Numbered from the whole stretch's first letter, positions 12,863-41,899 are shown. The stretch: 63,095 bases of DNA, filler included, from Hausera hauseri (GCA_046269625.1; 9 parts of 9 records of this genome joined end to end with filler, not necessarily neighbours in it), one strand, 5' to 3'. The notes: generated from the sequence alone by a model not told the origin. A program made the numbers and translations.

Positions 12863-13095
12863 GGTTGCCAGCATGGTTCTCCAGTTTCAGGAGGGGCTGG
12901 ATTCATGTGGCCAGTTCTGGCAAGTGGTGAAGAGGTCATGGAAGCAGTTCCTTCCTTTCTTTTGCACAGATGGGCGGCGGCTAACAAGGAACTGCTTCCT
13001 TTTTGAAGTCGTGTGGAGTCCTGCAGGCAGCAACAAATGAGAGAAAGTAGAGGCAACTATCTTTCTGTGGGAGTGGGGGCTTCTAGCTATTGAAG
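12863..13095 (+). pseudogene. G2E3-type HECT ubiquitin ligase exon (disrupted)
   Basis: AG/GT-bounded; QFQEGLDSCGQFWQVVK..FLPFF..LFEVVWSPAGSNK*EKVEATIFLWE with an in-frame TGA. Confidence 0.65.
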
Positions 13096-13855
13096 GTGTG
13101 TTCGTGGGAGGTTGATAGTTAAATCAGGTCCTCAGCTTCGTTTTTGAAACGTTTCAGGTTTTATCTGAAAGACTTCTTCAGTTTGAGTCAGTGACACCCA
13201 GAAGTGATAGTTCCTATGCTAAAGTAAGCCCATCAGACTAAAGACTGGTCAATTGTGTCCTGATGGCCAATGGCAATAACAGTATTGTAAGAGGGGGACA
13301 ATTGGACACAGAGCCCTCCAACCCTGTTTGTTGTTTGTATCATGGTCTTAGTGTATTTTTATATTTGTTTTTCTGGTGTTTCTGTTTTTTTTCTACCCCA
13401 GGTGTTTCCAATCAGTCCCTCGTTAGCTCACCTTTATATTTGTATTGTCTTCAGTTCCTTGTGCTGCCAACCCCAGCCAGTGTTGTGTCCTCCTGTGTTT
13501 CTGTTCCTTGTGGTTTGCTCAGAGTTTTTACAGTATTTTTAAGCTGCCTCTACAGCATTTTTATGTTTATTAAAGCCTTTGCATTATGATTTTTTGCCTG
13601 TGCCCTGGGTGTACTCCTCCACCAAACCTCAAATAATGAGTGGATGGTCCTCACAAAGTTGGCTTCTCTCACTCTTCAATTAAATAAATATCCCTCCCAA
13701 TCAAGCAAATGATCCCATATGACATAACAACCAGTCAGCTATTTGAATTTTAAAAAATTTTTACATAGTTATTTAAGGTTATTGATTATGAATGGCTTTA
13801 CTTGAATAGCTTTAAAAATATAGGTTTATTTCTTTATGCTTTGTATTTTTTTCAG

Positions 13856-14082
13856 AGAAAGAGGTGGACCACACATTCGAGGAGGTGTTGGTATTTGTGA
13901 GCGGTGCTGACTGTGTTCCGCCACTCAGATTTCTCCAGTCCTGTACAATAGAGTTTTATGATCAGGAGCCAGGGACCTGCAGCATGTGCCTGTTCCTCCC
14001 ACGAGGTGTGGAAGAAGAGGCAAAGTTCAAAGAACTTTTAAGTACATCACTGAAAGGCTCAGTGGGGTTTGGTAAAGCCTAA
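13856..14082 (+). pseudogene. Terminal exon of the G2E3-type HECT ligase
   Basis: Preceded by a polypyrimidine/AG acceptor; FEEVLVFVSGADCVPPL.F..TCSMCLFLP..GSVGFGKA* (HECT C-lobe with the catalytic Cys in TC). Confidence 0.7.
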
Positions 14083-14439
14083 GTGCGTGTTCACTATAAT
14101 CATTGTGTTGTGTCTGTTTGTTTTATGTACATTATAATATTGTTCTGACTTGTTTGCATTTTTGTAGTAAAGTTTATGAGTGTACCAGCTGCCTCCTTAT
14201 GTTTTTTAAATCTGTCACTGCAACATTCATTTTTGTGAACTTCTGTTGTAGTTTGCACAGAGATTCACCATAAAATTATGACCCCTGTCCTTGACAAAGC
14301 CGTCATTTGACTATATAAAAATAAATATTGAGGTACATTGAGGGGCGTTTTTATGTTTAGTTTTCTGAAGGACAAGGTGTTAGCTGGAAGTTACTTTAAA
14401 AGGAGCAAACTACTTAAGATACCTAAAGTGTGGAAAGAT

Positions 14440-14784
14440 CAGTGGTGGGACGTAACAAAGTACAAGTACTTTGTTACTGTACTTAAGTGGATTTTTCATG
14501 TATCTGTAGTTTACTTAAGTAGTTTGAATCATGGGTAATTCTGACATTTACTTCACTACATTTTACATTAAGAATCTGTACTTTCTACTCCACTACATTT
14601 CTGTAATGTGTTGAAGTACAAGTTACATTCACGTCTGTAATACTGTAAGTCATTTTAAAACAAAGTACTTACTTACTTTTACTCAAGTAAAAATGTTGAT
14701 GTGGTAATTTTACTAGGGTACATATTGGTCTGTTTATCTGTACTTTGACTTAAGTACAGTGTTTGAGTACTTTCTCCACCACTG
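14440..14784. mobile_element. Teleost-type non-autonomous hAT element (MITE)
   Basis: TIRs CAGTGGTGG...CCACCACTG; perfect 8-bp TSD GGAAAGAT at 14432-14439 and 14785-14792; AGTAC-rich interior. Confidence 0.9.
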
Positions 14785-15171
14785 GGAAAGATGCAATTAT
14801 AGTTCCAATTCTAAAACCAGGAAAAGAGCAATCAGAAGCAGGAAGTTACAGACCTATGGCATTAACTGAACAACTATGGAGAGGACGATAAATGAAGGAC
14901 TGAAATAGGCTGCCTTTGTAGAAAAGAAAGGGAGTTTATCAAAATTTCAAAGTGGAGTAAGGAAAGGTAGAATACAAACAATGGACCCTATCTTCAGTTT
15001 TGAACATGTAATTAGAAAAGCACAAGTCAATAAGGAAAGTGTCGTGGCTAAACTTACAGTGAGTCCATTGCTTTTGTTTTTTCTATTATGATTAATGATA
15101 TGTTTGAAAATGAACAGAATGGAATGTGTTTCTCTTTATTTGCTGATGATGGAGCGATATGGAAGAGGGGT

Positions 15172-15589
15172 TGTTGTGGAATTCTTTATTTAACGAACAC
15201 AGAAATACGTGGTCCAGGAATGAAGGTACTCCGTTGAAGGTTCAGCTGAGTTTTATTGCAACAACAACAGGAACACAGAGAACAACAAAGAGCCATCAGA
15301 CTGTCCCCCTGCTCTCTGCTCCTGTCTCTGTTACCCACTCTCTCCCTTCACTGGCAGTCAAGGCCTAATATATACTGTTTTACAAACACCATTATGTCAT
15401 CTTAATTAAGCATCCTAAGGAAATGCTGGGTCAAGAGAAAACACAAAGATAAACACAAGTGATATCTAAGAATGATATTTATCAAATCTTGTTCTGACTT
15501 TTCTATCTACTGATAAACAGCATGTCATGAAAACCTGGGTCATTAAAGTATGTCATGAATAAACCTGGAAAAGTAATATTACCATCACA
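15172..15589. mobile_element. Solo LTR inserted in the LINE
   Basis: TG...CA ends and a 5-bp TSD GGGGT (15167-15171 and 15590-15594). Removing it rejoins the RT-like sequence. Confidence 0.8.
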
Positions 15590-17819
15590 GGGGTAAAATA
15601 TACCCTATTGTTAAAAACTTACATGAACCTAATGATATAATAGAAGACTGGTCCTTTAAATGGGGATTCAAATTTTATTTAAATAAATCAAAGAATATTT
15701 TTTAAGGAAAATAGGTTCTAAAAAAATAAAATTTTTAATCTATAATCATGATTTGTAAAAGGTAAAATAATTTCAGTTTTTGGTTTGTTGAAAGACTTGG
15801 AAAGTGCATATTTAAAAAGTGGTAGATAAATGCAAGAGGGTTTTAAATGTAAACAAGTGTCTGACGGGGAGCTAAAAGAAAAGTGTTGAAGTCAGTATAT
15901 ACAGGCTTCATTTGATTTGTATTTGATTATGGCAGTATAGCATCAGTATCAATGTGTCAACTGTCACACCCACAACTACAAAGGCTTCACGCTAACATTG
16001 ATGCTAAAAGAGACAATACAAGCTATGATAAGGGTCACTTTGTTTGTTTCTGTTGTTGATGTGATGAAAATGAAACTTAAACTCAGCTTTTTGATGATAA
16101 AGCTTTCACATAACCATGAATGAAAGAAACGTTTAAACATTTTAATTTCAACTTTCATTTTCTTTATTTGGTGGACATTCTGTGAACTTACATTTAGATG
16201 AAAACATCAGAGGTGTCAGAGCTGGATGATAAAAAATGCAATAGAGAGTAGATGTGCAAACTACAAACTGATGTCACGATACAGAAGAACTCAGATTTTG
16301 TTTTTATTTTCAACTTTGAATAATGCAATATGTGATGTTTTTCAGGAGCAAAGTTGGTGGAACTGATCCGTCCTGTCAGTGATGGAGGTGACGGGATGTG
16401 GCTGTATGGAGATGCTGTCAAAATAATATTCAAATCAAAGTGATCAGAAATTAATTTGTCACACACTAAAGCTAATGCTGCATGACAACATTTTTCTTAA
16501 ATTTCCTGACGATGCCAAGGCTGAATACAATGTAATGTAAGGATATGTGATGGTGTTTGGTGGACATGTGGTTAAAGATGCTGACTGCTATTTGTATTTT
16601 TTGGTCTGTTTTTTACTTTTAGATGTCCTGCATTGGACATCACTTTTTCATTAAAAACATGTTCTATTATTAGTATCAGCCAGAAGAATCCAGCAAGTTT
16701 TAGTTGTTTCCCATCTCTTCTGCAGAAGCTTGACGATCAGTGATTTCTTTAAATCAGGTGTGCCATAGCAGGTAATAACTACACATGCAGCACAGTGGGT
16801 CATGATGAGCAGAAATGAGAAGCACAGGGTTCTACAGGTACTCATTTCACATGGTAAATCAGAAACGAAATATAGAACTATTTTTATTCTACAGAAAAGA
16901 CTTCATCTTTGTTGTCCAGTCAAAGCATTTACAGACACATATTTCCTTAGTCTATTAAATTTTTAAAAGTATATATGATTTATTTATTTTAACTCTTGCA
17001 TCCTGGTCTTTATATCTGACAGCAAGCAGAAAGAGCAGACAGACTGACATCTACAAAACAGGGTTTATATGATACAATCAATCCTGGAAACGGTAGGATT
17101 GGATCATTTGGAGACTTGAGGATGAGCTCTCAGTAGGGTGGACAATCTGACATGAAGACGCCATCTGGTGGTGAAGGAAAGTACTACTGTCACAACTCCG
17201 ATGTATGCTGTTTTACATAAAGGAGGGGAAAATGAAGCAATTTAGCTGACAAGTTGTTAATATGATCATGTCTGAAGTCTGTTAGGAACAGTGCAATTTG
17301 ATCAAGTAGAGCAGAACTGCATTTTAATATAAATGTAGATGCTTACTTGTTTAAACTTAAATATTGTGTATAATATTTGCTTTACTGGACTTTAAAGACA
17401 TTAAAATTAATAACTGGATAAGTACAGAGGCCAAAATTCAAATTCTAATAAATTCTCATTATAACTCTTTTTACTAAGTGCAGCAGAATATGATTTTCCC
17501 CCGAAAAAGGAAGAAAAAACATCAGTCTCTTTGCAGCAGAGCTGATCTGTGTTGAATTAGTGTGGTCTGCAGTTCTAGTTATCTTATTGGATGAGTGGAG
17601 ATAATCTAACTGGGTGAGAAAAGTGTGGGCAGGGCTTTTAGTTTAATAAAACTTCGTTTTGGACGGCGTTATAGGTGTCAAAAAACATCGTAAAATACAT
17701 TGTTAATTCTTTTTTAATGTTTTAGTTTATTCCTTATATAAAACACTTCGAAACAAAAAAGTATCGTATTTTTTTATATTAGAATAGGCTTTAGTTTCAT
17801 CATTAAATGACAGCTGTTT

Positions 17820-19200
17820 GCCGGTCGGGACTGACGTCTGATAGCGTGATGACGTATTGAATAGACGCAGCGGCGTCCTAACGTTGCTAGGCAACGTCGA
17901 AAATCAAGCCAAAATAGGCTAGTTTAGCTAATTACATGACGTTGCTAAGCAACGTCCTTAACGTATTCAAATTTCAAAACACTTGAAAGGCTAAATATCT
18001 TTTACTATTTTTTTTTGATGGCCTCCCTTCTCCCCTTATAGCCATCCTCTCCACACCATTATGATTTTTTTAGTTAACACAAAGGAAAAAAAGAAGAGAA
18101 AAGTAAGAAAGTCACAACACTGAACATATTTTAACTGTTTTTGTTTATTTTGTTTTTTAAGTTTTTTTAGGGGTGGTGGGGAAAAAACCCAGGGTTTTCT
18201 GAGAATATCCCACCGCATATACTAGCGACCCCCAATGCACCCGCACGGTTGGTTACTTCCCCCTATTGGTTTTTCACCCTAAGCTATACGCAGCATCTAC
18301 CTGCGCTTATGGTTTACTAAGCTATGTGCAGGTGTCCGGGAATCGAAGTATAGCTCGCTGCACACAGAGCAGCCGAAAGACCGAGCTGGTATTGCGGGAG
18401 ATAAAACCAGAGTCCCTGGAGAAAAACCCACTGTTGCAGAAGTCTGGAGCAAGGCAGACACGAGTGAATTGGCTGCAACGTTTCACATCCGACTCACCTG
18501 TTGAGGGCTGGATTTCCATGTCTGGGCAGTTTTTAAATGAATGCGAAGCTGTCATGTGAATCGCTTCTGTTTTTCCAACAAGCAAACTGTCAAATAGTTG
18601 TAGAACAATAGAACAAAATACTTGCCAGCAGCTGAGCGCAGGTCTGCTTCCAGCTGAGATCTGAGAGAGAAGTGAATGACGTATCTATGATGTCACATCA
18701 AATCAAACGATCCGAGGCTTTTGAGCAAAGCACGTCATAATGACGTCACTTCGGAGGCGAAATGAGAGCGAGTCTGCTGATTCTTTGGGGAACGCGCCCT
18801 GAGCGAGCACGCGCACGTGCAGACTGAAGCTGAACAGAAGTTACGTTTTGTTTCTGATTCTAAACGTGAATTTTCTTCTTGACCACGTGACCAGAATAGC
18901 AAAGCGTCCAGATATATCATGACTCTATTTCTAGTTCAGATGAAGCGCTCACTTTGCCTAAAAAGATCCATCTCCGCCTATTTTCGTGTTTTTCTTCTTC
19001 CATTGAGAAGCTGCACAGGTGCTGCGTGCAGAGCTGATCGTTCCTGTCAATCAGCTGTCCGTGCTGCGCCTGCAGCAGCGTGAGACGAGACCTCAGCTCA
19101 GCTCGAGCCTTTCCACCTGCATACGCGCACAAAGGATGTTTTTATCAGAGTTAAAACTCTTTTCTCATGAGGAGGCGCTGCGCATGCGGCAGATCACCTG
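17820..19200. promoter_or_regulatory. CpG-enriched, vertebrate-style promoter region
   Basis: Two RFX X-box-like palindromes, GTTGCTAGGCAAC (17883) and GTTGCTAAGCAAC (17941); a CRE, TGACGTCA (18741); an NRF1-like TGCGCATGCG (~19179); locally raised CpG density. Confidence 0.45.
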
Positions 19201-19351
19201 CTAATGTCTGGATCAGCGTCAGAGCTGCTGAATAAAGCCGCTGTTTTTCAAACAGTGTTGCAGCTCAACATTTATGACAAAGACTTCCCAGGAAGTTCAT
19301 CTACTTGTTGGAGGAAGTTGGTTTTTAATAAGGGGCAGATATTCCTTTTTT

Positions 19352-19353
<2 letters not shown>

Positions 19354-19415
<62 letters not shown>
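19354..19415. repeat. (CT)n microsatellite at the contig end
   Basis: Visible directly. Confidence 0.95.
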
Positions 19416-19418
<3 letters not shown>

Positions 19419-20191: not shown

Positions 20192-21945
20192 CGCGGCAGC
20201 GCTGAATTTCCGTCCGCCCACCCTAGGTCATTGGGTCGGACGGCACTGCATCGCACCCCTGGCAACACACCAACCCCAATTTCCCTTTTCTTTTTTTAAA
20301 TAACACACATTTGCACCATCAAGACATCGCAAATAAACAACACACAAATTTATAACATTGTCTGTGTCTTCATCTGTTCATCTGACTTCTACATTACGCA
20401 CAACGGCTCTAACGTACCTATCTCTGGGATCCTAAATCCTTCGCCTCATATCCACTTCCATATGCACTTTCGCAACCGTGGCGGCATGAATTCTTCGGCA
20501 ACCGTAGACACCACGGATAAAGCTACTACGAAACCAAAGCCCATTATACTATTCCAAAAATCCACTACTACTTCTGCTAATAACCATTCAACCCCTACTT
20601 CTTCCGCTCCTTTCCCTCGCTGCACTAAATTTTTTATCGACAAACAAGGCTCTAGCAAAACTTGGTTGCAATTTCACCAACTGTGGCTACAAGCAAACAA
20701 CGCTACTGATTCCTTAACTAAAGCACACAACCTCCTTTTCTTTCTCCCTAACAATATCAAAACACGAATTCATAAAATCATTGAAATCTTCGAACTTCCT
20801 GATCCGTATTGACAACTCTTCGATGCCGTTCTTAAGATCACAGAACCCTCAATGGACAGTATAGTACAACACTTCTTTCAAGACAACGCCATAGGTACAC
20901 AACGACCATTACACTTTTTAAGTACTTTGACACACCTACAAACCCTCGGCGTCACGAAAGAACATAATGCAGAATTGCTTCACCACTACTTCCTCAACGC
21001 GTTGCCCACTGAAATTCGGGTCCTACTTACCGTCATGAAGGACTCCACGGTTCGTGAAAAATTGGCCGAATTCGCCGACAAGACACATGACGTTTTGCAC
21101 TTAAACTTTCCACCAATAGTTTTGGCGGCAGTCGCTGCAAGTGGTAATCAAAATAACAACGCAACGATATAACAACAGCTGAATCAGCTACGTGCTGAAA
21201 ATACAACATTGTACGCAACAATTAACAATATTAATAATAAATTGAATGAACTTTCGCTGTCCCGCCGAAGGAATTTTGTCACTGATCGCACCAATTCTGT
21301 ACCTAGAAACCGATCACAGTTGCCTGCGCGGTCATCTATGTGTTATAGTCACAGCAGATGCAATAAAAGTGCCAAAAAATGCTGCCTAGATGCACATTTT
21401 ACAATAAAAGTTTTTTCAAACATCGTTGTTTGCATTTACCACGCGAAGTTTAAAAATCAAGTTCGTAAATGCATTCCAGGCTGTACTTTCAAGACGGATA
21501 CAAACGACGGACGTGCTACTTTTTCTTCTAAGAGTCTTCCTAGTTCACCTTTCCAAAAAAACTAAATTTGCCGCCAGAAGTCACGGCAAACTCTGGCAAA
21601 GACATTGTTTCACCTTCTGAATGCCGACATGCCTCATTTGCGGTCTTTACTCTAAAGGCTGCAATCACTGGTTCCACAACGCAATCCGTTGATTTCCTCA
21701 TTGATACAGGTGCAGCGAGTTCTTTATTACCACAAACCTTTACTGTTCAAAATTTGCCATTCAAAATCAAATCTTTATACACCCCTTCGGATCAATCGTT
21801 GCACGTTTCTGGCATGGCTAAATTATCTTTTACCCTACCAAAATTTCCTTCACTTTTCCACGGGACGTTCACAGTTGCTAATGTCAAGACGGCAATTTTA
21901 TGTTCTGATTTTTTATCACATTATAATTTATTGGTGTCTGAGGAG
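20142..21945 (+). mobile_element. Truncated Gypsy LTR retrotransposon, CsRn1/Kabuki-like (possible 5' LTR, gag, protease)
   Basis: gag pieces at 20462-21565 with CYSHSRCNKSAKKC and CIYHAKFKNQVRKCIPGC knuckles. gag ends A AAA AAC TAA. The protease FLIDTGAASSLLP..AILCSDFL follows in the -1 frame. A candidate TG..CA LTR at 20142-20393 is weakly supported. Confidence 0.8.
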
Positions 21946-23099
21946 TGGTATCACTGGCAGCGTTAGTGAGCATATAAATAGCCTTTCGACTACCGCGCAG
22001 TCGATTGGGACGCGGCTATCAATTTTGAGGAAATCACAAGTTCTGACACCATTTATAGATATCTGTATTGTCCATGAACATATTTAACGCAAAAGACTGT
22101 GGCGAAGAATTCTGATCCAATTTCCCAATACTTCATCGGCTATTTTGTCTGTTTTGTTTTCGAAATAATAATACTCGGGCATTTTAATAAGATCCAGAAA
22201 ACGCCATTTTTTACCATGTTATATATATTTTTTAAAACAATTTTTTTAAACAAAACTTTAAAAAGATTCTTTTTATAAATTTTGGTAATACGGGTAAATG
22301 TGAGCAGACCGGTTGTTTTGCACATCAGAATAAACCGCATATAAAATAAAATTATTTGCGTTTTCTGTACAATATTCTCCTGCATTGTATTTAATTACAA
22401 TAAGTATGATATTTGCAAATTCGTATAATTAATTACAAACTAGCAAAACCGAAAATAAGTCCATTGCATTATTGTATGTACATACATCGATAATATCGTT
22501 TTGATAAATGCACTATTTTACAAACAAAATAGGATAAGGAATACAAGAAAATAAATCTGGAATCTACAAAACACATGTGTAGGATTTGAACTTCATGTCC
22601 AATTCGCTCTGACTCAAATCAGACTTGAATATTATCAACAAATTACCCGCATTTGTAAGGAGTTCTAACCTACCCCGAAAAAGGTAATGAATTTCCCAGA
22701 GTTTCTACAAAAGATCGTCAAGGGGATTTTAAAACATTACGCAAATGACGAAAATCAGTAATTTCTTCTAACCGAAATATTGATTCGAAAAGTCCAAAGA
22801 AATAATTTAATTTTTCAATATTCAGTTTCTGTACAGTTCAAAATGACAGTTTGAAACCGAAAATATTTTATTTATTAAAGTTTAAAAAAATTGACATTGA
22901 AAATTCAATCATTTCATATTAAATTTTTTATAGCATTAAAACAACACCAGATTGGTGGGCATGGCCCAATCTGCAATTTCGGTACAATCATTTTTTGTAA
23001 ACAAATCGACATTTTATATTTAGTTATTATTACGTTATTAGACAAAAAGTTGTCAGTAAATCCATCATTCGATTATTTGCTGCATGAATTTCATAAATC

Positions 23100-24190
23100 G
23101 TTTCGCATAGTGTTCTGGCCGAAGAGTTTAAAAGACTCCAGCTTTAATACTTTCAAAGTTTTGGTTAGAATTAATCGAAATCCATGATCGGAATCAAACC
23201 ATTCAATCCGTTTGCAATACGTTGATATAGTCCCAAGATGTTCATCAGACAATGTTTTAAATCCATTCAAAATCCATGTTTTAATTTTAGGACAAGCCTC
23301 GGCCAGTACTCAAATGCAGCAACGGACAGCTGATTACATCTGGATAAATCGATGTACACTAGTTTTGTAATGAATCTTCCGCTAAAGAGACATTCAAATC
23401 CTTGATCGGTAATTCTGTGGCCGTAAGCTAAGCTTAGGCACTAGATTATGGCTGTACCTAGCTAACCATGGTGGAGCGTTATCTTGGATTGAACTGTTTG
23501 TCAGATTCAATTAAGTTAAAATCAGTTCGTCCGTACGACTGGCACATTCTGACAGATTGAGGTCCTGTCGATTTCGACATTCGCTAATCGCCGTGAATGT
23601 TTCATTGCCTAAATTTGTACGCGATCGTAAGTTCAAATGACAGAGACTGGTTCGTGCTCGCTGTAGAATTCGTTATGCAACTCCGTCATTCAATGTGTCT
23701 CGTATGTCTTCAAAATTCAATCTATTCCACAGTGAATCATTCTGCGCTATGACATTCCATGACCTACAAACTGGGGTATTTATTGCTCTGCAGGCAATGG
23801 AAAGTTCGGTGAAAATATTCAAGGAAAGCTGAATAGAACGTGATAATAGATCATCACGAACTTTGCCGTCACCAATGCTGAATACGTCTTTAATCTTCTC
23901 CAACTCCCCTTGTTCCAATCTCTCGAAATACTCTGATTTTAATATCTTCTTTGGTGAGTTTATCCTAGGAATGAAAAATCCTCTGGCAAGTGTTTTTAAA
24001 CTTAAGTTGCTGCAAAATTTCATAGGCAACTTCTTGCCTTCTGAGACGTTGCACAATCCAATTTCTCCAGATATTAAACGTTTGTTTAATCCAAACATTT
24101 TTGTAGTGTTTCAGTGCCGTTTCCTCGAGTATCATTGATCGATGAACTTTTTCACGTTTCATTACGTGATATATTACCCGTGTATTAAAA
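23100..24190 (-). pseudogene. FBXL13: F-box/LRR protein FBXL13 (DRC6)-like, intronless and disrupted
   Basis: EYFERLEQGEL..RDD..VCRSWNVIAQNDSLWNRLNF..CHLNLRS..ISECRNRQDLNLSEC..LAEACPKIKTWILNGFKTLSD, with frameshifts and stops. Confidence 0.7.
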
Positions 24191-24541: not shown

Positions 24542-26102
24542 GGAGCAATTGGACGCAATTGAACATTTCAAATGTTACAGCATTTCTCATTTGTTCCTTC
24601 AGCCTAGTATACTTCAATTTGATTTTTTTCCTCTTTCCTGATGCTTCTTTTCTGGAGTCATTTATGGATGTTAAACTTCGACTTTTTACATTTTTATTAG
24701 AATTGTGACAACTGTATAACTTCATATGAAAAGTAGTTGTTGGTTACAATTTTCAATGACCTTACAAATTCTGATTAATATTATTTAAATATTATAGTGT
24801 TTTTTAAGACTTCCTAGTAACAAAAATTCATATTTTCATTTGCAGTTCAAATTTGCATAGCAGTGAAGGCCATGTTTGTGTCCATATTCTATGTTAAAAT
24901 TTAATTGGATAAAATTATTACACACATCCATCAATTTTATTGGGACTACGAAGTCTTAAAAACACTTTTTTGTCCTGAGTACATATTTCGATCATCCTCC
25001 ATCTCTTTCACCATTCATTACTAATTCTTTAAGATTCATGAAACATTACTTTCTACTATCAGAGGGCGACTGGTTGTCTCATTTCATGTATTTGGCAAAA
25101 GACGAATTAAGTGTAAAAGTGACAGGTACTCAATTAAAATGTTCTGACGAATGATAGTCATATTAACACAAATCAGATTATTCCAAAATGAAACTGGAAT
25201 CTGTGTTAGATGTTACCGTTCAAGCTGGATGTTCTGTCAACGAATCTCTGAAAGATAATCTCAAGTAATCTTTTGGCAATTGAACTTACTCTTATATTTC
25301 TTATGAATTAATAAATATACAAAATTAAAATTGAACTCGAAATCTGAGGGCACTGAAGACAGTAATATCCCGAAAAGATTTTTGGAAGAGTTTCGGCGGT
25401 TGTTCGCCAAGGAAATATGTGACTGTGATCTTCAGAATTGGGGTGTAGGAGAAAAGATTGATTCTATATCCATCAATGGCAGGATGCTGCGATTGATGTA
25501 GGGATTGTCTTGTTTGAGGGATTTGAATCCAAAATTCAGTCTATAAGTATAATTAAGATCATCAGGTTCTTCCCATAAATTCCATATGTTTAGGAGACAG
25601 GAAATTAAGGAAGAACTTGGTAATCACCCTGTACATTTTAGTTTCATTTAGTTTCATTAGTAACAATTATCAAAGTTTTATCTGTCAATGCTAAAAACAC
25701 TGAAAACAGTTGTCAACAGCTGTTAGGGCAATCTGGCAAATACAATTACTGTATGTTAACAGCTGCCGTAGTTTAGATCAAATGTCATCTGTCTGGATCG
25801 GACTGCAGTATGTCCATTCAGTCGCCAGTTACTATATTGGTGATCTCTTCTGTTAATCACTCTCAATGAGAGTTGCAATGAAAATGTGTATACTGCAAAG
25901 CCTTGCGTACCGTTGATGGAAGACTGTTTCCTGAACTGGGGGTGTTGATCAATGAGCTCTATCTGATTAATCTTTAGTCCACAGATTTTTGGTTGGAGGA
26001 GTTTAAATTATTTATGGACTTTTTTTTTGCCTACACCTGATAGCATACTTTTCTCTGTCAACCCAGATTATGAGCAGGAACAGGTCATTTACTTGGCAAT
26101 GA

Positions 26103-26657
26103 CTAAGCTTGTATATTTTCTACTGTATTATCGATTGTATAGACTATGTGTGCTGGTATTACTTCATCATACTTAGTGTCCGGATCCAGATCAGGTCTTT
26201 TAACAAATGTGTCGATGAGTGGTATATTGCTTACGTCCACATTCAACGAGTAAGGACAAGTTGGGCGCAGTTTCTTATGTTTTTCCTTGGGTCGATCCTT
26301 TATCTGCTCATATTGGAATTCTCCCTGACAATATAGGCATTTTATTTGTCCCATTGAAGTTCGGAATAGTCCGGCATTGGCATATATTTGCGCCAATTCC
26401 CCTGGGACAGGTGAATTTGGGTATTCAAGGAATGGTATTTTTCTGTTCTGTGTATCTCTCATGGAGTTGTCCAACACCGTCATTCTAGAGTAACTTGTCC
26501 GTCTTTTAATGAATGCTGCTGGTCCAAGTTGTCTATTCTGATAATATAACAGGTACTGTACTGTATTAGGTTGTACTGTTCTGGTATATTCGCAATATCT
26601 GGGGGTTTGAAATTTGAGCTCTCTTATCCTCTGCATTTCAGCTAAAATGTAACCCAA
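26103..26657 (-). CDS. Single-BIR (IAP repeat) protein
   Basis: R..F..P..A.AGLF..IKCLYC-x16-H-x6-C (CLYCQGEFQYEQIKDRPKEKHKKLRPTC) followed by SNIPL, which is the exact BIR CX2CX16HX6C spacing. Confidence 0.85.
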   Translation of the reverse strand: MGYILAEMQRIRELKFQTPRYCEYTRTVQPNTVQYLLYYQNRQLGPAAFIKRRTSYSRMTVLDNSMRDTQNRKIPFLEYPNSPVPGELAQIYANAGLFRTSMGQIKCLYCQGEFQYEQIKDRPKEKHKKLRPTCPYSLNVDVSNIPLIDTFVKRPDLDPDTKYDEVIPAHIVYTIDNTVENIQA

Positions 26658-26679
26658 TCAAATAAGAACACTATTTTAT

Positions 26680-26973
26680 TCACAAATTTTTTATGGTATA
26701 ATAACTATGTTTGTATCGAAATAGTTTATTGTTAGTACGACACACTGGGCATGAAGCTCCAATGGAGAACCATTCCCTTAGACACTGTCTGCAAAACTGA
26801 TGCCTACAAGGGACCAACTCCACTGGGTCTACCGAATACTCGTTTAGACAAATTGTACATTGAGCTCCCACAGGAGTAAAATTTCCACATGGGTTGTATG
26901 TCGTATATTCACTTATATCGTCGATCTGGCAAAATGCTGGGAACCCGTGACTCAGTATGGTCGATGAATTCAC
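26680..26973 (-). CDS. Small C3HC4 RING-finger protein
   Basis: CTICLNEYSVDPVELVPCRHQFCRQCLREWFSIGASCPVCR. Confidence 0.88.
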   Translation of the reverse strand: MNSSTILSHGFPAFCQIDDISEYTTYNPCGNFTPVGAQCTICLNEYSVDPVELVPCRHQFCRQCLREWFSIGASCPVCRTNNKLFRYKHSYYTIKNL

Positions 26974-27042
26974 AATACGGGGTAAACCTTAAGAAAATGA
27001 AATAAACAATTTGCTACAATTAATTTTATTGATAATTTAATT

Positions 27043-27465
27043 TTATTCTATGTCCAATATTGTATAGGGTTGTGGGTTTCTCCACGCTTCCGGCCAGCTG
27101 CCGTCGACCTTATCGATCACTAGTACTATAGAGGATTGACTATCCGAGTTCAAGTATGTAATCAGTCCTTCCGTAATATAAAAGTCCACCGTTTCCAGGC
27201 AGTAGGGGCATAATTGACAACACGTTAAATATTCAAGGATGCATGACTGGCAAAATATATGCCTACACGACAGAGTGGCCAGATCGTCAGCTACTAGTTT
27301 GGAGCACACCCAACAAAATGTGCAAACTCTTCTGCAGCAAGGACAATTGTTATGTTCCCCCAACCAGATATTGATACAGTGACTGCAGTATTTGTTTTTA
27401 CATGGTAGTATTGTCCTTTCGCCCATTATTTCTTCAAGGCAGATGGGGCATTTTTCGGTTTCCAT
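27043..27465 (-). CDS. Tandem double-RING protein
   Basis: CPICLEE..LPCKNKYCSHCINIWL..CPCCR (His replaced by Asn) and CWVC..LSCRHIFCQSCILEYL..CPYC. Confidence 0.85.
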   Translation of the reverse strand: METEKCPICLEEIMGERTILPCKNKYCSHCINIWLGEHNNCPCCRRVCTFCWVCSKLVADDLATLSCRHIFCQSCILEYLTCCQLCPYCLETVDFYITEGLITYLNSDSQSSIVLVIDKVDGSWPEAWRNPQPYTILDIE

Positions 27466-27612
27466 CCGTCTTCATTTCTGCTTCCATTTCTGTTTCCATT
27501 TCCTTAAACAGTAATAGTTTATTCCAGTTATATTTTATATTCGTTTATAAATAATTTCTTCCAATTAATAAAACAAATTTTTAAATGCTAAAATTTATTA
27601 GGTTATAACTAT

Positions 27613-27999
27613 TCACAGGTCAGCGATTCCTGTTAATTTTCTAATTTCTTGTATATCAACGTCTGTCAAGGCACATATAGGACATAACAAAAAACACCCA
27701 TCGTCTATGGTCATCACGTCCAATTTCGCGTCCTGTCCACAATAGGCGCATATAAATGAATCTTCTATCTGGTCCAATCTCCTGATAAAATCGCACAGTG
27801 GGCATTGGATTCTTTCGTTTTGATCTCCGTCAATCTTCTGACATATGATACACCCTTAATATGTCCCACATTAATACCATCGACTCTGATTCTCGTTATC
27901 AATTAAATATTCTTTGGTTATGTTAAAACAACTTTTGTATTAAAGTTTATTATGATCATCAAATGGGCATGTAAACCAGTCCGTTGGGCCCAAACACAT
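27613..27999 (-). pseudogene. Decayed small Zn-binding protein with four CxxC pairs (not in the ORF track)
   Basis: One frame from ATG(27999) to TGA(27613), with three internal TAA: ..GCIICQK..QCPLCDF..ICAYCGQ..LCPICAL.. Confidence 0.6.
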
Positions 28000-28009
28000 A
28001 TAAATCGTG

Positions 28010-28309
28010 TTAATCCCCTTCTACCGGATTCTCGTCCTCCTCTGTTTCACTTTCTTCTTCGTCTGGGATCACCACTACGGTGGTTCCCCAACACTGATAG
28101 GATGTAGTTTTTCTCCTACAAAACGGGCACGACTGATTCTTCGCTAGCCATCTGTCTGCACAGTGGGTGCACATTATGTGAGTGCATCTTAATAATGCGT
28201 ATTTCCGTCCAAGTGAGCCAAAACATATATCACACTGTGCTGATTCATTTCGATCACCTGAAATTATCTGGGGTAATAAACTTGTTATTATTCCAAGCGT
28301 ATTTTGCAA
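28010..28309 (-). CDS. Small C3HC4 RING-finger protein with an acidic tail
   Basis: CDICFGSLGRKYALLRCTHIMCTHCADRWLAKNQSCPFCR..DEEESETEEDE. Confidence 0.88.
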   Translation of the reverse strand: MQNTLGIITSLLPQIISGDRNESAQCDICFGSLGRKYALLRCTHIMCTHCADRWLAKNQSCPFCRRKTTSYQCWGTTVVVIPDEEESETEEDENPVEGD

Positions 28310-28434
28310 TAAAGTGAAATCCCCTTATTCAACTATTTGTCAATCAAAGATATTTCTTAATATTTTATTCTCTAAATTGAAGTTCTTTTTGTTTTTCATA
28401 TTACTGTGCTCCTCACTCGGGGTACCAGTTTATA

Positions 28435-29125
28435 TGTTTTGATACAGGGGTCTTTACCTACGGCTGACCTTAAGTCGTATCCACATATAAAGGATTTATT
28501 TGTCAGATGTGCATACACGATAATCTCCGTCTTAGGATATCCCGATGTACATGCCATAAACACCATTTCTTCTCGAAATCATCTCATATCTGAAGGTGTG
28601 TATGTGAGTTAAATTCAATATAAATGCCAAACATTTTTAAGTGCTTGCTGTATATCCACACGGCTAGAATTTACCCTAATATTTTGTCTATTCCGTATAG
28701 TCTCATTAGAGTTAGATATTCTTTGCATATTCTCAATAGTTATATAAATGTTTCTTTCTAGATTTAAGTCTCTGTTTATTCTCGATGACAATGTTTCTTC
28801 TAATGTTTACTCCTTTCTTTATCTTTCGTATACACATAAATATACACATGCTTATCTTTCTGTTAGTATGTTTAAGATGATACTCCTCAATGGTTCAATA
28901 TGCTTTTCTTCCATTACTTCTCGCTCCCTATCAAATTTGTTATTATTATTAAACATTAACTACCGTAATGATCCTTTTCAAAAACTATAAGGGGTATATT
29001 TGTCAAATTAATCACTGCCTACCTATATGTGTCAATATGATCAACAGATATTCATTACAAAAGCATTATTACGTTAACTTTTGGTTCAAATACAATAACG
29101 AATTATACCAAATATAATAAGTAAA
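28435..29125. repeat. Left arm of a ~690-bp diverged inverted repeat
   Basis: Reverse complement of 29518-30210 (e.g. gatacaggggtctttaccta / taggtaaagacccctgtatc). Confidence 0.9.
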
Positions 29126-29387
29126 GGGATAATCATTGTATGTACTAGTTTATGACAATAAAATTTAGATTACAATAAAGAATATTAATCAATTTAGTTA
29201 TCATAATCCAAACAATTTCTATGAACAAAACAACAGTTACACCGGCGCCCTCTAAAAGGAGAAAAAATCGTTTCTAAGTAATGTGTATATTGTATCATCC
29301 ATTGGGTAATTCTCTAATCAAATAGTTTGTGCCACCTAGGCTATTCACTCTATCTTAGCCCTATCAATATTACCACCATCCGGGAAT

Positions 29388-29615
29388 TCAATCTATCAAC
29401 TCAACGATCACCGTTCTCCAATTAGGATACATTATACATTTCTCTAAACAACGCATGGTATGCACGTCAGTAAACAATAAATTCCGTCGGTCCTCATCCG
29501 TTATTCGAATATAGAATTTTACTTGTTGTATTTGGTACAATTCTTCGTCGTATTTAAACCAAACGTTAACGTTATGATGTTCTGGCAATGAGTATCTGTT
29601 GATCCTGTGACACAT
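29388..29615 (-). CDS. Small hypothetical ORF starting in the right repeat arm
   Basis: 75 aa. A frameshifted paralogous start lies on the + strand at ~29026 (..INRYSLQKHYYVNFWFKYNNELYQI*). Confidence 0.4.
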   Translation of the reverse strand: MCHRINRYSLPEHHNVNVWFKYDEELYQIQQVKFYIRITDEDRRNLLFTDVHTMRCLEKCIMYPNWRTVIVELID

Positions 29616-30210
29616 ATAGGTAGGCAGAAATTAATTTAACAAATATACTCCTTATAGTTTTGAAAGGGATTGTTGAAGTAGCTGATGCATAATAATAACA
29701 ATAACATAAATTTGATATAAGCAAGAAATAATGGAAGAAAAGCATAAGGGACCATTGAGGAGCATCATCTTAAACATACTAACACAAAGATAAGCATGCG
29801 TATATTTACGTGTATACGAAAAATGAAGAAAGGAGTAAACATTAGAAAAAACATTGCCATCGAGATAAACAGAGATTTAAATCTAGAAAGAAACGTTTAC
29901 ATGACTATTGAGAATGTGCAAAGAATATCCAACTTCAACGAGACTATATGGAAAAGACGAAAATAATAAAGTAAATTCTAGCAGTGTAAATGTACAGTAA
30001 GCACTTAAAATGTTTGGCATTTATATCGAATCTAACTCACATACACGCCTTCAGTTATGAGATGATATTTGAGAAGAAATGGTGTTTACGGTGTTTACAT
30101 TATGGTATCTTGAGACAGAAATTACCGTGGAAACACATCTGAAAAATGATTCCTTTATATGTGGATACAACTTAAGGTCAGCATTAGGTAAAGACCCCTG
30201 TATCACAACA
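29518..30210. repeat. Right arm of the ~690-bp diverged inverted repeat
   Basis: Reverse complement of 28435-29125. Confidence 0.9.
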
Positions 30211-31069
30211 TTATTAATAACCTGGTGATTTATTATTATTTAAAGAAATCTTAAAAAAGTCTCTTTGATTGATAACTCAGAATCAATACTGAACTTCCAA
30301 AATAATAGAATCCGGATTAGACCTATTATCGATTACAAGTAATATTTCGATTAAATTGTCGATGAAATTTTCATGATTTTAGAAATGAACAGACGAAATG
30401 AATTAAATAATGCCATGGATAACCATATTGGTGCTCGAGGAGAAATATTTGCGCTAAATGAATAGTTCACTCAGATTGGTAAATAATTTTTTAAATTCAA
30501 ATTTATGCCGCTATTTGTTTATTGATGTTAGATTTGTTGCCTTAATAGAATTTTTATTCGGAATAATAATTGTTGTGTATCTTTGATGGTTTGAAGAGTT
30601 GAGTTATTTTGATTATTTAATATTAATATGGTAAATTAATATAGGTATAATATTAAATAATTAATATAAGTTTTACATTATTCATATAATAAACATTGAA
30701 TTATTTAAGTGCGTCAGTGAGAGCTTGGTTCCAACTGCATTTAACTGATGTGAAATATTTAAACAGGTGCAGGTAAACTTGAGGTTTATCCGACCACCCG
30801 TGGAACACGTAAAAATAAGTTGCACAAGCGCAGCTTCCGTAAATAAAATGTTACATTGATAACAACATGAACGATGACATGTTATTAGTGAAATATTAAA
30901 CGAATATTTATTAGTTCAGCAAAATATCCAGAAGGCACAATTAATGAAATATTAACGATGAAAAAACGGCAAAAATTTTGATAATTCATAAAAATTCTTT
31001 TGCACGTTAAAGGGAAAATTGAAGATGCGCAAATGACGTAAGTAGGGGGAAAAAGCCGTTTCTGGCACA

Positions 31070-31398
31070 AAGGGGGAGGGGGTCCGCCCACGCATCACGT
31101 GATTGGTCACGTGATCCACCTACGCGTCACGTTATATCCGCCCACGCGTCACGTGATTGGTCACGCGATGCGTGCGAAAAGTCACGTGATATTGTCCAGA
31201 CATTTGTTATTCTCACATGACTTCGTTTATTCTCACGTGACATTGTCTAGACTCACACGTGACATTGTCTAGACTCACGTGACATTGTCTAGACTCACTT
31301 TACATTGTCTAGACATTTTTATATGCACCATTGTCAAGATATTTATTTGCACCATTTTGACATTGTCTAGACGCACTTTACATTATCTAGACATTTTT
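31070..31398. repeat. CACGTG/CCGCCC/ATTGG-rich repeat block with 20-bp tandem units
   Basis: tccgcccacgc(a/g)tcacgtgattggtcacg(t/c)gat at 31083 and 31137; about four copies of cacgtgacattgtctagact at 31234-31315, decaying towards the contig end. Confidence 0.85.
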
Positions 31399-31498: not shown

Positions 31499-33625
31499 AA
31501 GTCCAAACACAAACGTATGTCCTTCTTGTCCTTTTTCCAAACACAGACCAGTGGAGTGTTCCACGGTGACTCGCATGTCTTAATGATGCCACTTTCTTCC
31601 AGGTCGGCTATCAGTTCTTCTACCTTTGGTTCCAAATTACGTGGTTGTCTTCTGCGGTTGATGGATATTGGTCCGCCGTTAGTACTTATCTTATGTTTCG
31701 TGATATGTGTGAGTCCAGTGTCCCATTTGAGCCATGAAGATGCTCTTGTATTTTTCCATTATCTTCCCGAACCGTTAGTTCTGTCCGGTGTTGAAGGCAT
31801 CCAAAGCGGCTTGTAGTCTCTGATCAGCGTTCCCTTGTTTGTGTAAGTATGCATCAATTTGACAGATACTACGGTTTGTTTCTATTTCTGACTGTTGGTC
31901 TTTTGTTTCAATCCTCTTGGTCAACCACATATCCCATTTTCTCAACATGTCGATTCCTACTATTACCTCTGGTCTTAGATCTTTAACCACATAAAACGTT
32001 GTCATTTCTGTTTCTATAAAAATGGTTACCGCAACCGTCGTTTTCCCGTACACTATAATTGCATTTTGGTTCGCGCATAATATTGTGCAATCGTTTGTTT
32101 TTATCAGCTTTGCCGTTTTTATTTTGTCGAAGACTCTTTTGTCCATAACGTTTGTGCCAGGTCCCGCATCCAGTAAACCTTTAAATTTCTGGCCGTTCAT
32201 TTTTAACCATACGCTAGGCCTTCCTTGAAAATCATCGTAGTCGATTTTTTGAGTTGAAATTGCACTTAGCACTCTTTCATTGATGTTTTCATAGTCCTTG
32301 GTCTGAACTTCAATGATTTCCCTGTTATCAGATTCTCTAGGAAATTCTTCAGTAATATTTGTAATGTATACGCTACTACAATAGTTTAACACTTGAGGTC
32401 ATTTGGGGTTCGGTTCATAAACTCTACTACAACTACTACTATTATTTTTACTATATTTACAGTTAACTACACTACTTTTACTATTTATTTGGTTAACTAC
32501 ACTACAATTTTTTCTACACTACGATAAGGATCAATAATTGAGTTACTTAGCATGCCCCCTCTGTCTTTCTTGACAGGGGAGCACGGTTGTTTCCCGATCG
32601 GTTCGTTTCGCTGTCGGATGTACAGTCGTACGACGAAACACTAAGTGGCCGTGGATACCGTTCGACGATCGACTCTTTTGTGAGTCTGCCGGACCCTGTA
32701 TATTCATCGTATTGCATATCGTGATAGATCGCATTCGTTGTTTATTCTCGTTGTTCGCGGCGTTTTTGGTAGCACTGCGATCCCAGATGCCCGTTTCTTC
32801 TGCAGTGCGGGAATTTCACATATGGGCAATCTTTTCGAATGTGGCCTTCTTCGTGGCATGCGTGGCAGTGTCTGTCTATGCCCTTTGTCTTGTTTACTGT
32901 TGGGCAGTCTCTTCTGATATGCCCTTTTCTGTGGCAATGCCAGCATTCTGTCGGTTTTTGGAACATGATTTGTGTTTTCTGTTTCTCGTCCGGCTGTCAT
33001 CTTGTTGTTTGTTTGTTGTTCCAACCATATAAGTTATGCGCTTTTTGTTGGGCCACACTTGCGTATGACAGCGGTGTATGACTTTGTCCAAAATTCGCAC
33101 TCCGATGTGTCCTTTCTGTACTTCGATGTTTAAAAGGTCGCGACTTCCTCGTTATCCACTTCGCGAAGTTTTTCGATCTTTCGCATGACGTCTCAAAAGT
33201 TGTCTACGGATTTTACTTCACATGTAGTGAATTCTTTCTTGGTTTCCCTGTCGTCCATGCAATGGACTAAAAAGGTTTTCACCAGTTCCTCTTTCGACAT
33301 CGTGTTGCAAAAGTTTCTCAACCAGCTCTTGTACTTTCATCAGGTATACTTTAATGTCGTCTGTGCCTTTCCGGTAACTCAGCAGTTTTGATATATCTTC
33401 TGTGACCGATAACGGTTTGCCGCAGGTTTTGCGCAGTCTATCTTCCCAATTTGTTATTTTCCTTGCCTCTTTGGTCTCTATTTGAAACAATCTGCCGTAT
33501 TCCGGTGAGAGTATTTTGTACACGATCCAATATTTCTCTTAGTTGGATAGCGTTATTCTATTTACTGACTCGGTGAAATCGATCCATTCATGAAAGTCTT
33601 TAATAAATTTTTCCAGACATGAGGA
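31499..33625 (-). mobile_element. Decayed Gypsy LTR retrotransposon: gag (three CCHC-type knuckles), protease, start of RT
   Basis: CWHCHRKGHIRRDC, CHACHEEGHIRKDC and PHCRRNGHLGSQC; protease GLLDAGPGTNVM..VIVGIDML; RT N-terminus GIIKTCESPWNTPLVCVWKKDKKDIRLCLD. Confidence 0.88.
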
Positions 33626-40511: not shown

Positions 40512-40569
40512 GAATGGCACCCTGAGGTGTGTTCTATTTATTTTAATTGCAAAACCTTTTACCATACTA

Positions 40570-41209
40570 ATGAGATTTGCTGTCAATCAGGAGAAACGCA
40601 ACAGTAGGCCCCGGTGGAAATGGTAAAACACACTGTAAACTATTACAAAACTACCGTGGCATATTCCATTCACCATTATTCAATCACATTTACTGGCATC
40701 AGGGTGCTGGTGGTGAGTCCGGTCTGACACCAGGAATTTTGTAAATTAAAATTGATAACATTAATAGATGGGTTTGATGAGAACTGGTTCGGGCGATTAC
40801 GCAACGAAGGCGTTATTGTCATTGATGATTTATTCCAGGAAGCCGCGAAACAAACTGACTTTAATAACCTGTTTATAAAGATTGCACGACACCGTGGTGT
40901 GACTGTTATTTTCATTACGCAAAACAGGTTCCATCAGGGAGGACAGCACTAAACACTAAATTTTACGTGCCCTATTTGGTACTGTTCAAAAATCCCCGTG
41001 GTCAGACTATCATAGATTATATTGCTCGACAAGCATTTCCTCACAACCGGACCTACTTAATCGAGGCCTATTATGATGCTACAATCACGTCACACGGATA
41101 TCTGTTCATTGACTTTACACCACAGTCTCCAGATGACATGCGTGTACAAACAGACATTTTCAATCCGAAAGGTGTGTATGTCTATAAACAAATTCGAAAA
41201 TCGACATGA
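40570..41209 (+). pseudogene. Polinton packaging ATPase (A32/FtsK-like)
   Basis: Walker A GPGGNGKT (40607), Walker B VIVIDD, ARHRGVTVIFITQN, YLVLFKNPR and HGYLFIDF. Confidence 0.9.
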
Positions 41210-41424
41210 CAGTACTGAAAAATGAAGAATTTCCCGAAAAACAATTGTTAAACGTGAACCTACGAAAAAGAAACGTGCATCAACAGCAGCATCAAAACGC
41301 AACGCTACAGTTAAGCAATTAATCAATTCAGTCCTTCGAACAACAGCAGTGAGACGCAAATTACCATCAAAGTGGCAACGATTATAAACAACTACGTCGA
41401 CGCATCAATATGCACTGATGAAAC

Positions 41425-41753
41425 ATGCGTATCGAATGTTGTCAACCGTACTTTATTGCTTTGCTTAAAGCCCTGTCGAGACATAAAGGAATCATGCTAC
41501 AATCATTACCGCAATTTCTAGTGGACGATTTAATGGAAATTTTGTACAATATTGTTGTTCGTCACGTTGACATTGGTAGTGGAAAGCGGAATTTACTAAA
41601 GTATCGAAAACGACTCATTACCTTGTCAACGCTCGTAGTAAATGACTGAAACGATAGGTCATGTACCAGCAAGACGGAGGATTCATTGGTGCAATTCTGC
41701 CTGTTGTCATGTCATTACTGGGTAGTATCATCGGTGGCAAAAGTTTAGTATAG
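41425..41753 (+). pseudogene. Small conserved Polinton protein with a C-terminal GGF-amphipathic tail (gasderminX-like in adintovirus nomenclature)
   Basis: LMEILYNIV..LLKYRKRL, then after a frameshift QQDGGFIGAILPVVMSLLGSII. Confidence 0.55.
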
Positions 41754-41899
41754 TATAAATAATGAATGTAAGTATATTATGTTTGGTAGTATTGGTGCAT
41801 AGTTTTCATCATTTTGTCCCATTTTACCGAATCTTACATTCACTTTGCGTTCAAATTGTTGCAATACAAACAAAAACCACACCGGCAACACCGACAACA

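What the first reader, a model, noticed from the sequence alone, without database searches (positions are those of the whole stretch)
26103..28309. Compact virus-like cassette of one BIR gene, three RING genes and a CxxC gene
Seen: five small intronless head-to-tail ORFs in 2.2 kb contain four RING fingers, one exact-spacing BIR and a decayed four-CxxC protein. AATAAA overlaps or closely follows three of the stops (minus strand near 26675, 27041 and 27596). Established: IAPs combine BIR and RING in one chain, and large DNA viruses carry BIR and RING genes. As I recall, some planarian Burro retroelements also carry BIR and RING ORFs. Inference: an anti-apoptosis/ubiquitination accessory module of a mobile element or endogenous virus, with BIR and RING split into separate genes.
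Basis: partly seen in the sequence, partly recalled or inferred. Interest (0 to 1): 0.72.

Follow-up and report, generated by a model that had tools for sequence, protein, structure and literature searches.

The report
Cut-off anti-apoptosis cargo of mobile DNA
This 2.2-kb stretch holds four small zinc-finger reading frames and one that matches only the front 43% of a complete cell-death-blocking (IAP) protein, it has many diverged look-alike copies, and it is likely a broken piece of the cargo of a large jumping element rather than a new kind of split gene.

Summary
The domains are real: four RINGs, one BIR and a four-CxxC frame, with AATAAA after four of five stops. The cassette has many diverged copies in two public runs, between low-depth flanks, so it is not a single-copy host gene. 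The 'split BIR and RING' reading is not supported. The closest relative of the BIR frame is a complete 403-aa BIR-RING IAP, 44% identical and colinear from Met1. The multi-copy sequence ends at 26117, four codons before the frame's stop, and no poly(A) signal follows, so this copy is probably a truncated IAP. The four RINGs are not IAP-type. The CxxC frame looks like a degenerate RING paralogue. Three of five frames have no in-frame ATG; each opens right after TAAG|G in the same phase (0 of 146 control frames begin TAAGG). They may be alternative last exons. No polymerase, capsid, RT or integrase lies on the 6.9-kb contig, so the carrier is open: Polinton-like about 0.45, giant Gypsy about 0.3, other about 0.25. 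IAP and RING cargo is known in such elements; only the possible spliced RING array would be new.

The parts
26103..26636 (-). N-terminal 43% of an IAP: beta-hairpin extension, one BIR and a linker; the last four codons and the stop lie outside the repeat
   Evidence: Pfam BIR 32.4 bits; 75/172 identical to residues 1-170 of the 403-aa BIR-RING protein P0001; BIR core pLDDT 82-94; no AATAAA for 1164 nt
26117..26117 (.). Sharp left edge of the multi-copy sequence, the likely truncation point
   Evidence: 4 of 4 listed places near the edge give 26117 in both runs; bin arithmetic gives depth about 311 (X1) and 16.6 (X2) up to it, against about 5 and 0 beyond; P0001 homology ends at 26121
26680..26988 (-). 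C3HC4 RING frame without any Met; opens after TAAG|G; AATAAA overlaps its stop
27043..27465 (-). Two-RING frame (first RING has Asn for His). In-frame ATG at 27465. An upstream TAAG|G (27506) and ATG (27499) are out of register with it, in a 12-nt tandem tract where some other copies differ in length
27613..27855 (-). Four-CxxC frame, likely a degenerate RING paralogue lacking ligands 3 and 4; no ATG before the finger; opens after TAAG|G
   Evidence: six Cys align with the RING paralogues; 9/19 identical to the 28010-28324 frame before the first Cys pair, E=4e-4; no Pfam family passes its cut-off
28010..28324 (-). C3HC4 RING frame with an acidic tail; no ATG before the RING; opens after TAAG|G. 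An in-frame ATG at 28399 is separated from it by two stops
28372..28468 (-). Short non-coding stretch as widely shared as the BIR core. Holds TATAAA (28434) with CAGT 28 nt later, and a primer-binding-site-like 18-mer starting TGG (28427-28410)
   Evidence: depth 8784 (X1) and 146 (X2) against 52-58 and 0 in the adjacent bins; motifs read from the sequence; function untested
28434..30211 (.). Low-depth inverted duplication (arms 28434-29125 and 29518-30211, 85% identical). The first arm holds a short frame (28399-28578) with a phase-1 donor-like site at 28458|28457
30865..31398 (.). Very widely shared repeat with tandem 20-22-nt units, cut by the contig end; possible terminal repeat of the carrier, link not shown
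25026..25281 (+). Host-type gamma-tubulin complex exons with a 51-nt GT-AG intron: the flank beyond the truncation
   Evidence: Pfam GCP_C_terminal E=2.1e-7, 31.2 bits; intron ends

Best explanation
The stretch carries three RING frames, one four-CxxC frame and the front part of an IAP, has many diverged look-alike copies, and is likely one truncated, decaying copy of the accessory region of a large mobile element in an invertebrate genome. Shown: the domains, the repeated nature, the edge at 26117, the match to a complete BIR-RING IAP, and that the RINGs are not IAP-type. Inferred mechanism: in intact elements the IAP gene would be one chain (BIR, degenerate second BIR, helical region, RING) that binds cell-death proteins and ubiquitylates them, keeping the cell that hosts the active element alive. 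The small RINGs, paralogues made by tandem duplication, would act as separate ubiquitin ligases against host defence proteins, each ending at its own AATAAA. This copy probably makes no full IAP. The ATG-less frames are either spliced last exons (my odds about 0.45) or have lost their starts. The carrier is most likely a Polinton/Maverick-type DNA element (about 0.45; giant Gypsy 0.3; other 0.25).
For: Repeated: run X1 lays 1937 contigs on 2.9 kb (186 at 99%+, 395 at 95-99, 747 at 90-95, 609 under 90%). Summed depth is 2700-8700 over the BIR and adjacent RING frame and 300-1500 over most other bins, against 4.7-5.8 on the left flank, where contigs match with 0 differences. Run X2 (another organism label, 350 contigs) shows the same profile. 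Truncated IAP: P0001 is the only hit below 1e-30 among 525 hits at E<=0.001. It is colinear from Met1 and carries a C-terminal RING. Of the 5 relatives that share the N-terminal extension, 3 have a RING; the other 2 (198 and 158 aa) lie on contigs of 2386 and 861 bp and may be cut. The window frame is sister to P0001 (SH-aLRT 90). No trace of the missing C-terminal part lies downstream (best E 0.13-0.42). The BIR frame is the only 1 of 5 with no AATAAA. RINGs unrelated to the IAP: 86 of 90 IAP RINGs have 11/6 spacing; the cassette RINGs have 10 residues in the last loop and score 5-21 bits against 61-70 for the relatives' own RINGs. None of the 60 shown (of 69) or 59 PDB hits is an IAP RING. 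Past selection on the BIR frame: 1 of 16 listed variable places is at codon position 2, P=0.014. Precedent: IAP and paired-CxxC accessory genes in adintoviruses (PMC8502044); accessory regions flanking the core in Mavericks (PMC8097293).
Against: No core gene of any element was found in the six frames of 28330-31398 or 24542-26120, so 'mobile element' rests on repetition and architecture. The tool warns that summed depth is no copy number; both runs are of unrecorded type, and X1 may be the source of the window. A loose end at 26117 was not among the 12 rows shown (364 not shown), so I did not see other copies continue into IAP sequence; all copies could end there. P0001 is only 44% identical and its DNA context could not be fetched. 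The six-sequence group has support 78 only, on a quick tree of 92 columns. The codon bias rests on 16 of the best-supported rows (40 of 380 shown) and is absent in the RING and CxxC frames (5 of 18 at position 2). A dispersed host IAP family is not excluded: bivalves hold many intronless IAP copies (PMC7831173).
Confidence: 0.68

Rival explanations
1. One reading: a module in which BIR and RING are separate, complete genes whose products assemble into an IAP-like ligase in trans.
For: The BIR frame has an ATG and 177 open codons directly after three RING frames. I could not see the family's continuation beyond 26117. BIR genes and RING genes both occur in malacoherpesviruses (PMC5552708 passages).
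Against: The closest relative is one chain. The repeat ends before the stop. There is no poly(A) signal, and the RINGs are not IAP-type.
Confidence: 0.12
2. The carrier is a giant Gypsy-like (Burro-like) LTR retrotransposon: the conserved stretch at 28372-28468 is the LTR end plus primer-binding site, and these are accessory frames upstream of gag.
For: The TGG-initiated 18-mer at 28427-28410 fits a tRNA 3' end pattern (by inspection; its likeness to a leucine tRNA is recalled, not tested). It lies in a stretch shared as widely as the BIR core. Burro elements carry BIR and RING motifs and can have upstream accessory ORFs (PMC6431247 section 7). The assembly holds large Gypsy-like fragments.
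Against: Four sense-strand AATAAA signals would be expected to cut the full-length RNA short (inference). The DNA upstream of the site has low depth (9-52), whereas an LTR should be at least as common as the interior. The Burro BIR is inside the polyprotein. The same stretch fits a TATA+CAGT promoter. No gag or pol is on the contig.
Confidence: 0.3
3. An endogenous large DNA virus (nudivirus-, nimavirus- or herpes-like) fragment, with TAAG as a baculovirus-type late promoter (motif recalled) and start codons lost by decay.
For: TAAG precedes all four RING-family frames. The compact head-to-tail frames have AATAAA on the stops. Such viruses carry BIR and RING genes.
Against: TAAG occurs 15 times on the minus strand of 26050-28600, so it is not rare here. 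A promoter would not explain the shared phase. No viral core gene and no hit in viral contigs.
Confidence: 0.12
4. A host-derived, dispersed or tandem IAP/RING gene family (retrocopies or passive cargo of DNA transposons), with no selfish function.
For: Intronless IAP expansions are described in bivalves, enriched near DNA transposons (PMC7831173 passages). The left flank is a host-type gene.
Against: Five units are packed into 2.2 kb with their own poly(A) signals. A wide spread of identities is seen in two organisms. The nearest relatives are unnamed, mostly single-contig proteins rather than the annotated host IAPs.
Confidence: 0.13

Closest known systems
Accessory genes of Polintons/Mavericks (adintoviruses): IAP and Bcl2 homologues, paired-CxxC 'Oncoid' genes (PMC8502044, section 3.2 read whole; PMC8097293, passages)
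   Same: Small, compact, host-manipulating genes including an IAP and CxxC proteins, in a repeated element; most copies are degraded (96% of vertebrate loci).
   Different: No polymerase, integrase, ATPase or capsid gene and no end motif on this contig; no LxCxE in the CxxC frame (by inspection); 'RING' has 0 hits in the adintovirus main text or in the one, cut, supplement file; three frames lack ATG.
Burro/GYPSM1 giant Gypsy elements of planarians (PMC6431247, section 7 read whole)
   Same: BIR and RING-type motifs in a high-copy element; accessory ORFs can lie upstream of the polyprotein.
   Different: The Burro BIR is a domain of a 4,873-aa gag-env-pol chain. Here it starts at its own Met and matches a free 403-aa IAP; no gag, pol or proven LTR.
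Canonical BIR-RING IAPs; nearest is the unnamed P0001/P0009/P0011 group
   Same: BIR with exact zinc spacing, shared N-terminal extension, 44% identity to P0001.
   Different: This copy stops after residue 173 of the homology, without the second BIR-like part or the RING.
Malacoherpesvirus BIR and RING genes (PMC5552708, passages)
   Same: BIR genes and zf-RING genes in one invertebrate-associated DNA genome.
   Different: No herpesvirus core gene here; many diverged copies within the host DNA.

Membership tests
IAP (BIR-RING) | BIR domain with C-x2-C-x16-H-x6-C | tested here: met
   Pfam 32.4 bits over cut-off 22.9; confident model of residues 61-130
IAP (BIR-RING) | C-terminal IAP-type RING in the same chain | tested here: not met
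   Absent in this copy; present in P0001, P0009 and P0011
IAP (BIR-RING) | Binds caspases or antagonists, blocks cell death | not testable with these tools
   No assay; best PDB stretches are the first BIR of NAIP, not a peptide-binding BIR3
C3HC4 RING E3 ligase | Eight zinc ligands in RING spacing | tested here: met
   3 of 4 RINGs complete; 1 has Asn for His; Pfam passes. The CxxC frame does not meet it.
Polinton/Maverick (adintovirus) | Protein-primed polymerase, integrase, ATPase, capsid genes | tested here: inconclusive
   None in the rest of the 6.9-kb contig by Pfam, but the element is cut at 26117 and the contig ends at 31398
Polinton/Maverick (adintovirus) | Terminal inverted repeats with 6-bp end motif and 6-bp target duplication | not testable with these tools
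   Neither end of the carrier is on the contig; no whole genome held
Burro-type giant Gypsy | BIR inside a gag-env-pol polyprotein | tested here: not met
   The BIR frame starts at a Met colinear with a free IAP
Burro-type giant Gypsy | LTRs and primer-binding site | tested here: inconclusive
   PBS-like 18-mer in a widely shared stretch; upstream DNA low in depth; no host tRNA available
Burro-type giant Gypsy | Planarian host | not tested
   Organism names are coded; host group not determined
Endogenous large dsDNA virus | Viral core genes linked to the cassette | tested here: inconclusive
   None on the contig; no related viral contig
Single-copy spliced host gene | One copy, depth equal to flanks | tested here: not met
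   Many diverged contigs, depth tens to over a thousand times that of the left flank

The most novel reading that the evidence does not exclude
A large animal mobile element makes a family of ubiquitin ligases by splicing one shared first exon onto any of four tandem RING-type last exons, each with a phase-1 acceptor and its own poly(A) signal, next to an IAP of an unnamed subfamily: a combinatorial host-manipulation module I did not find described for Polintons or giant Gypsy elements in the searches.
Probability: 0.3. Interest if true: 0.62.

Novelty: new member of a known kind. Interest (0 to 1): 0.36.

Why it matters
As it most likely stands, it adds one more case of a mobile element carrying IAP and RING cargo, and shows how a truncation can fake a 'split gene'. 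It also points to an unnamed IAP group (six sequences here) that may mark such elements. If the spliced last-exon reading holds, it would show that these elements diversify ubiquitin ligases by RNA processing, and it would make the open question of whether giant transposons manipulate host cell death (raised in PMC6431247) testable with one RNA data set.

Tried and rejected
No whole genome is held, so copy number and linkage could not be measured directly. Word-index protein searches found nothing for the BIR frame or the two-RING frame, and only P0001 itself for P0001; only near lengths were searched. Locus scans gave no usable locus: viral contigs (one search had 1 confirmed stretch but 0 loci), metagenome contigs, prokaryote genomes. 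No RNA holder was listed; this is no evidence on expression. Rfam: 2 weak snoRNA matches far below threshold, no ribozyme. No tRNA gene in the window. The conserved stretch 28370-28460 does not fold better than shuffles, z=-0.51. The Atlas gave BIR clusters for the BIR frame and only weak unnamed hits for the CxxC frame, both below the recognition level. A Bro-N-like reading of 28399-28578, from recall, got no Pfam or PHROGs support. No fold search was obtained. The edge at 26117 shows no transposon-end motif by inspection. A splice donor at the BIR frame's end (26123) is possible, but P0001 runs through that point and the DNA beyond is host-type flank. A trans-spliced leader supplying the ATG (recalled for flatworms) would put the three frames out of register, so I rejected it. 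The Burro primary paper was not held. One hit was dropped from the tree (150 of 151 rows, no BIR pattern found), and the careful tree did not finish. Look-ups of earlier findings by place and sequence were empty.

Full report
Context. The window is nine contigs joined by N44-TTAATTAATTAA-N44 linkers. The finding lies in the 6,857-bp contig 24542-31398, so nothing else in the window is linked to it. No whole genome is held. The DNA is eukaryotic by its content: gamma-tubulin complex exons with a 51-nt GT-AG intron, Gypsy-type and integrase fragments.

Observation. Five minus-strand open frames lie head to tail between 28324 and 26103. Pfam confirms RINGs in three frames (four domains) and one BIR. 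The fourth frame has four CxxC pairs and no family above cut-off. AATAAA starts at -2, +2, +16 and +61 nt from four stops and is enriched on that strand, 9 against 2.9 expected, P=0.003. Only 2 of 5 frames have an in-frame ATG before the domain. One RING has Asn in place of His.

Repetition. Two public runs hold the stretch (shares 0.37 and 0.06; type not on record; X1 may be the source). On 25850-28750, X1 lays 1937 contigs spread from 99%+ to under 90% identity, and X2 lays 350. X1 summed depth is 4.7-5.8 on the left flank, where contigs are identical to the window. It is 3200-8700 over the BIR frame, 2660-6340 over the next RING frame and spacer, 300-1460 over the remaining frames, and 28-58 to the right except one bin of 8784 at 28372-28468. 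X2 has the same shape. The tool warns that depth is no copy number. I take the contrast and the spread of identities as showing many diverged copies, with the BIR core shared more widely than the RING units.

The BIR frame is probably a cut IAP. An exhaustive search of 1.84 billion representatives gave 525 hits; one stands out, P0001 (E 1.9e-39). It is 44% identical over residues 1-172, colinear from Met1, 403 aa long and ends in a RING. P0009 and P0011 share the N-terminal extension and also end in RINGs. P0054 and P0071 share it but are short and lie on short contigs. On a quick tree of 150 BIR regions the window frame is sister to P0001 (support 90). The six form one side of a branch at support 78 (0 of 500 shuffles); I chose the group before building the tree. 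P0001 homology ends at 26121. The multi-copy sequence ends at 26117 in both runs, four codons before the stop. No remnant of the C-terminal part follows, there is no AATAAA for 1164 nt, and the DNA beyond is host-type flank. Against this: I did not see other copies continue, since only 12 loose ends were shown, and all copies ending at 26117 is not excluded. The model is confident only over the BIR core (mean pLDDT 69, residues 61-130 at 82-94) and adds a hairpin at 28-48. One of 16 listed variable places falls on codon position 2 (P=0.014), a hint of past selection; the other frames show none, 5 of 18.

The RINGs are not the IAP's missing half. Among the 168 stored proteins, 90 had a C-terminal RING, 86 with 11/6 spacing. 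The cassette RINGs have a 10-residue last loop and score 5-21 bits on that profile against 61-70 for the relatives' own RINGs, which were in the training set. Their PDB matches are RNF4, RLIM, Arkadia-type and similar. They are 30-35% identical to the first of them. The CxxC frame keeps six aligned Cys and a short shared lead-in, so it is likely a degenerate paralogue.

An unexplained regularity. The three ATG-less frames each open directly after TAAG|G, with the AG in phase 1. None of 146 other frames of 75+ codons in the window begins TAAGG, 9 begin TAAG and 21 have any phase-1 AG at the stop, which gives 0.003 for three of three on the loosest count. The test is post hoc and the units are paralogues, but the motif lies 1, 30 and 43 codons before the first Cys pair, so it is not simple alignment. 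The only AG between the BIR frame's upstream stop and its ATG is also phase 1. A phase-1 donor-like site lies at 28458 in a short ATG-bearing frame. The host intron nearby has no pyrimidine tract either, so weak tracts are no objection. Against splicing: AAG is an uncommon acceptor (recalled), the two-RING frame is out of register with its TAAG|G in this copy, and the candidate first exon has low depth (28-52 in X1, 0 in X2). No RNA run was listed, so this stays a hypothesis.

Carrier. Six-frame scans of the rest of the contig found no mobility gene, and no related locus could be fetched. One poly(A) signal per unit favours a DNA element of Polinton type (inference); adintoviruses carry IAP and paired-CxxC accessory genes (PMC8502044, section 3.2 and passages). 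Two earlier AI notes describe IAP-bearing Polinton derivatives in other genomes; these are unchecked leads, not support. A giant Gypsy is the main rival: a PBS-like 18-mer lies in the widely shared stretch, and Burro elements carry BIR and RING motifs (PMC6431247, section 7). The same stretch also fits TATAAA with CAGT 28 nt later. The tandem-motif repeat at 30865-31398 is very widely shared and recurs at two other places in the window; it could be a terminal repeat, but its link to the cassette is not shown.

Mechanism, inferred. Intact elements would express a one-chain IAP that protects the cell carrying the active element, and small RING ligases that redirect host ubiquitylation. This copy has lost the IAP's C-terminal half and is probably inactive. 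None of these functions was tested.

Literature seen. Named sections whole: PMC6431247 section 7, PMC8502044 section 3.2. Passages: those two, PMC8097293, PMC5552708, PMC7831173, and, with nothing bearing on the case, PMC8532177, PMC4061559, PMC8905726. One supplement file of PMC8502044 was searched; it was cut when stored and its maps are figures, so RING genes in adintoviruses may be missed. Nine searches gave no description of a spliced RING array in such elements; subscription papers and Repbase were not searched.

Verdict. A real feature of a known kind, with the headline novelty (split BIR and RING) most likely an artefact of truncation. Interest 0.36. The alternative-last-exon reading has probability about 0.3 overall and would deserve about 0.62.

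Noticed in passing
window, whole: Nine contigs joined by N44-TTAATTAATTAA-N44 linkers; features in different contigs are not neighbours.
   Followed up: yes
window 12174-19418: CpG observed/expected is 0.45, against 0.83-1.19 in the other eight contigs; possibly DNA of another organism.
   Followed up: no
window 40512-47233: Decayed contig with an rve integrase (E 1.6e-11) and frames that resemble Maverick ATPase and capsid proteins from recall only; Pfam, PHROGs, PDB and viral-contig searches gave no support for those.
   Followed up: partly
window 47334-63095: Integrase zinc-binding domain at 62204-62623 (E 3.6e-19) followed by about 13 kb of decayed co-oriented frames, like a very large Gypsy element; an unbroken TB2/DP1/HVA22 frame lies on the other strand at 54310-54693.
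   Followed up: partly
window 28434-30211: Inverted duplication with 700-bp arms at 85% identity and low depth; its outer end meets the widely shared stretch at 28372-28468.
   Followed up: partly
window 30865-31398, 4328-4417, 10108-10242: A very common dispersed repeat; the first copy has tandem 20-22-nt units rich in CACGTG and GC-box-like motifs.
   Followed up: partly
window 25026-26050: Gamma-tubulin complex gene fragment on the plus strand with stops in the downstream frames; two X1 contigs join across the 51-nt intron, suggesting another copy.
   Followed up: partly
window 31778-33033 and 21544-21963; 23676-24110; 1500-1871: Retro-type aspartic protease fragments, an F-box frame and a helix-turn-helix transposase-like frame.
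   Followed up: no
proteins P0001, P0009, P0011, P0054, P0071: Unnamed IAP group with a shared extension before a single good BIR and a degenerate second BIR; could be a marker for this type of element.
   Followed up: partly
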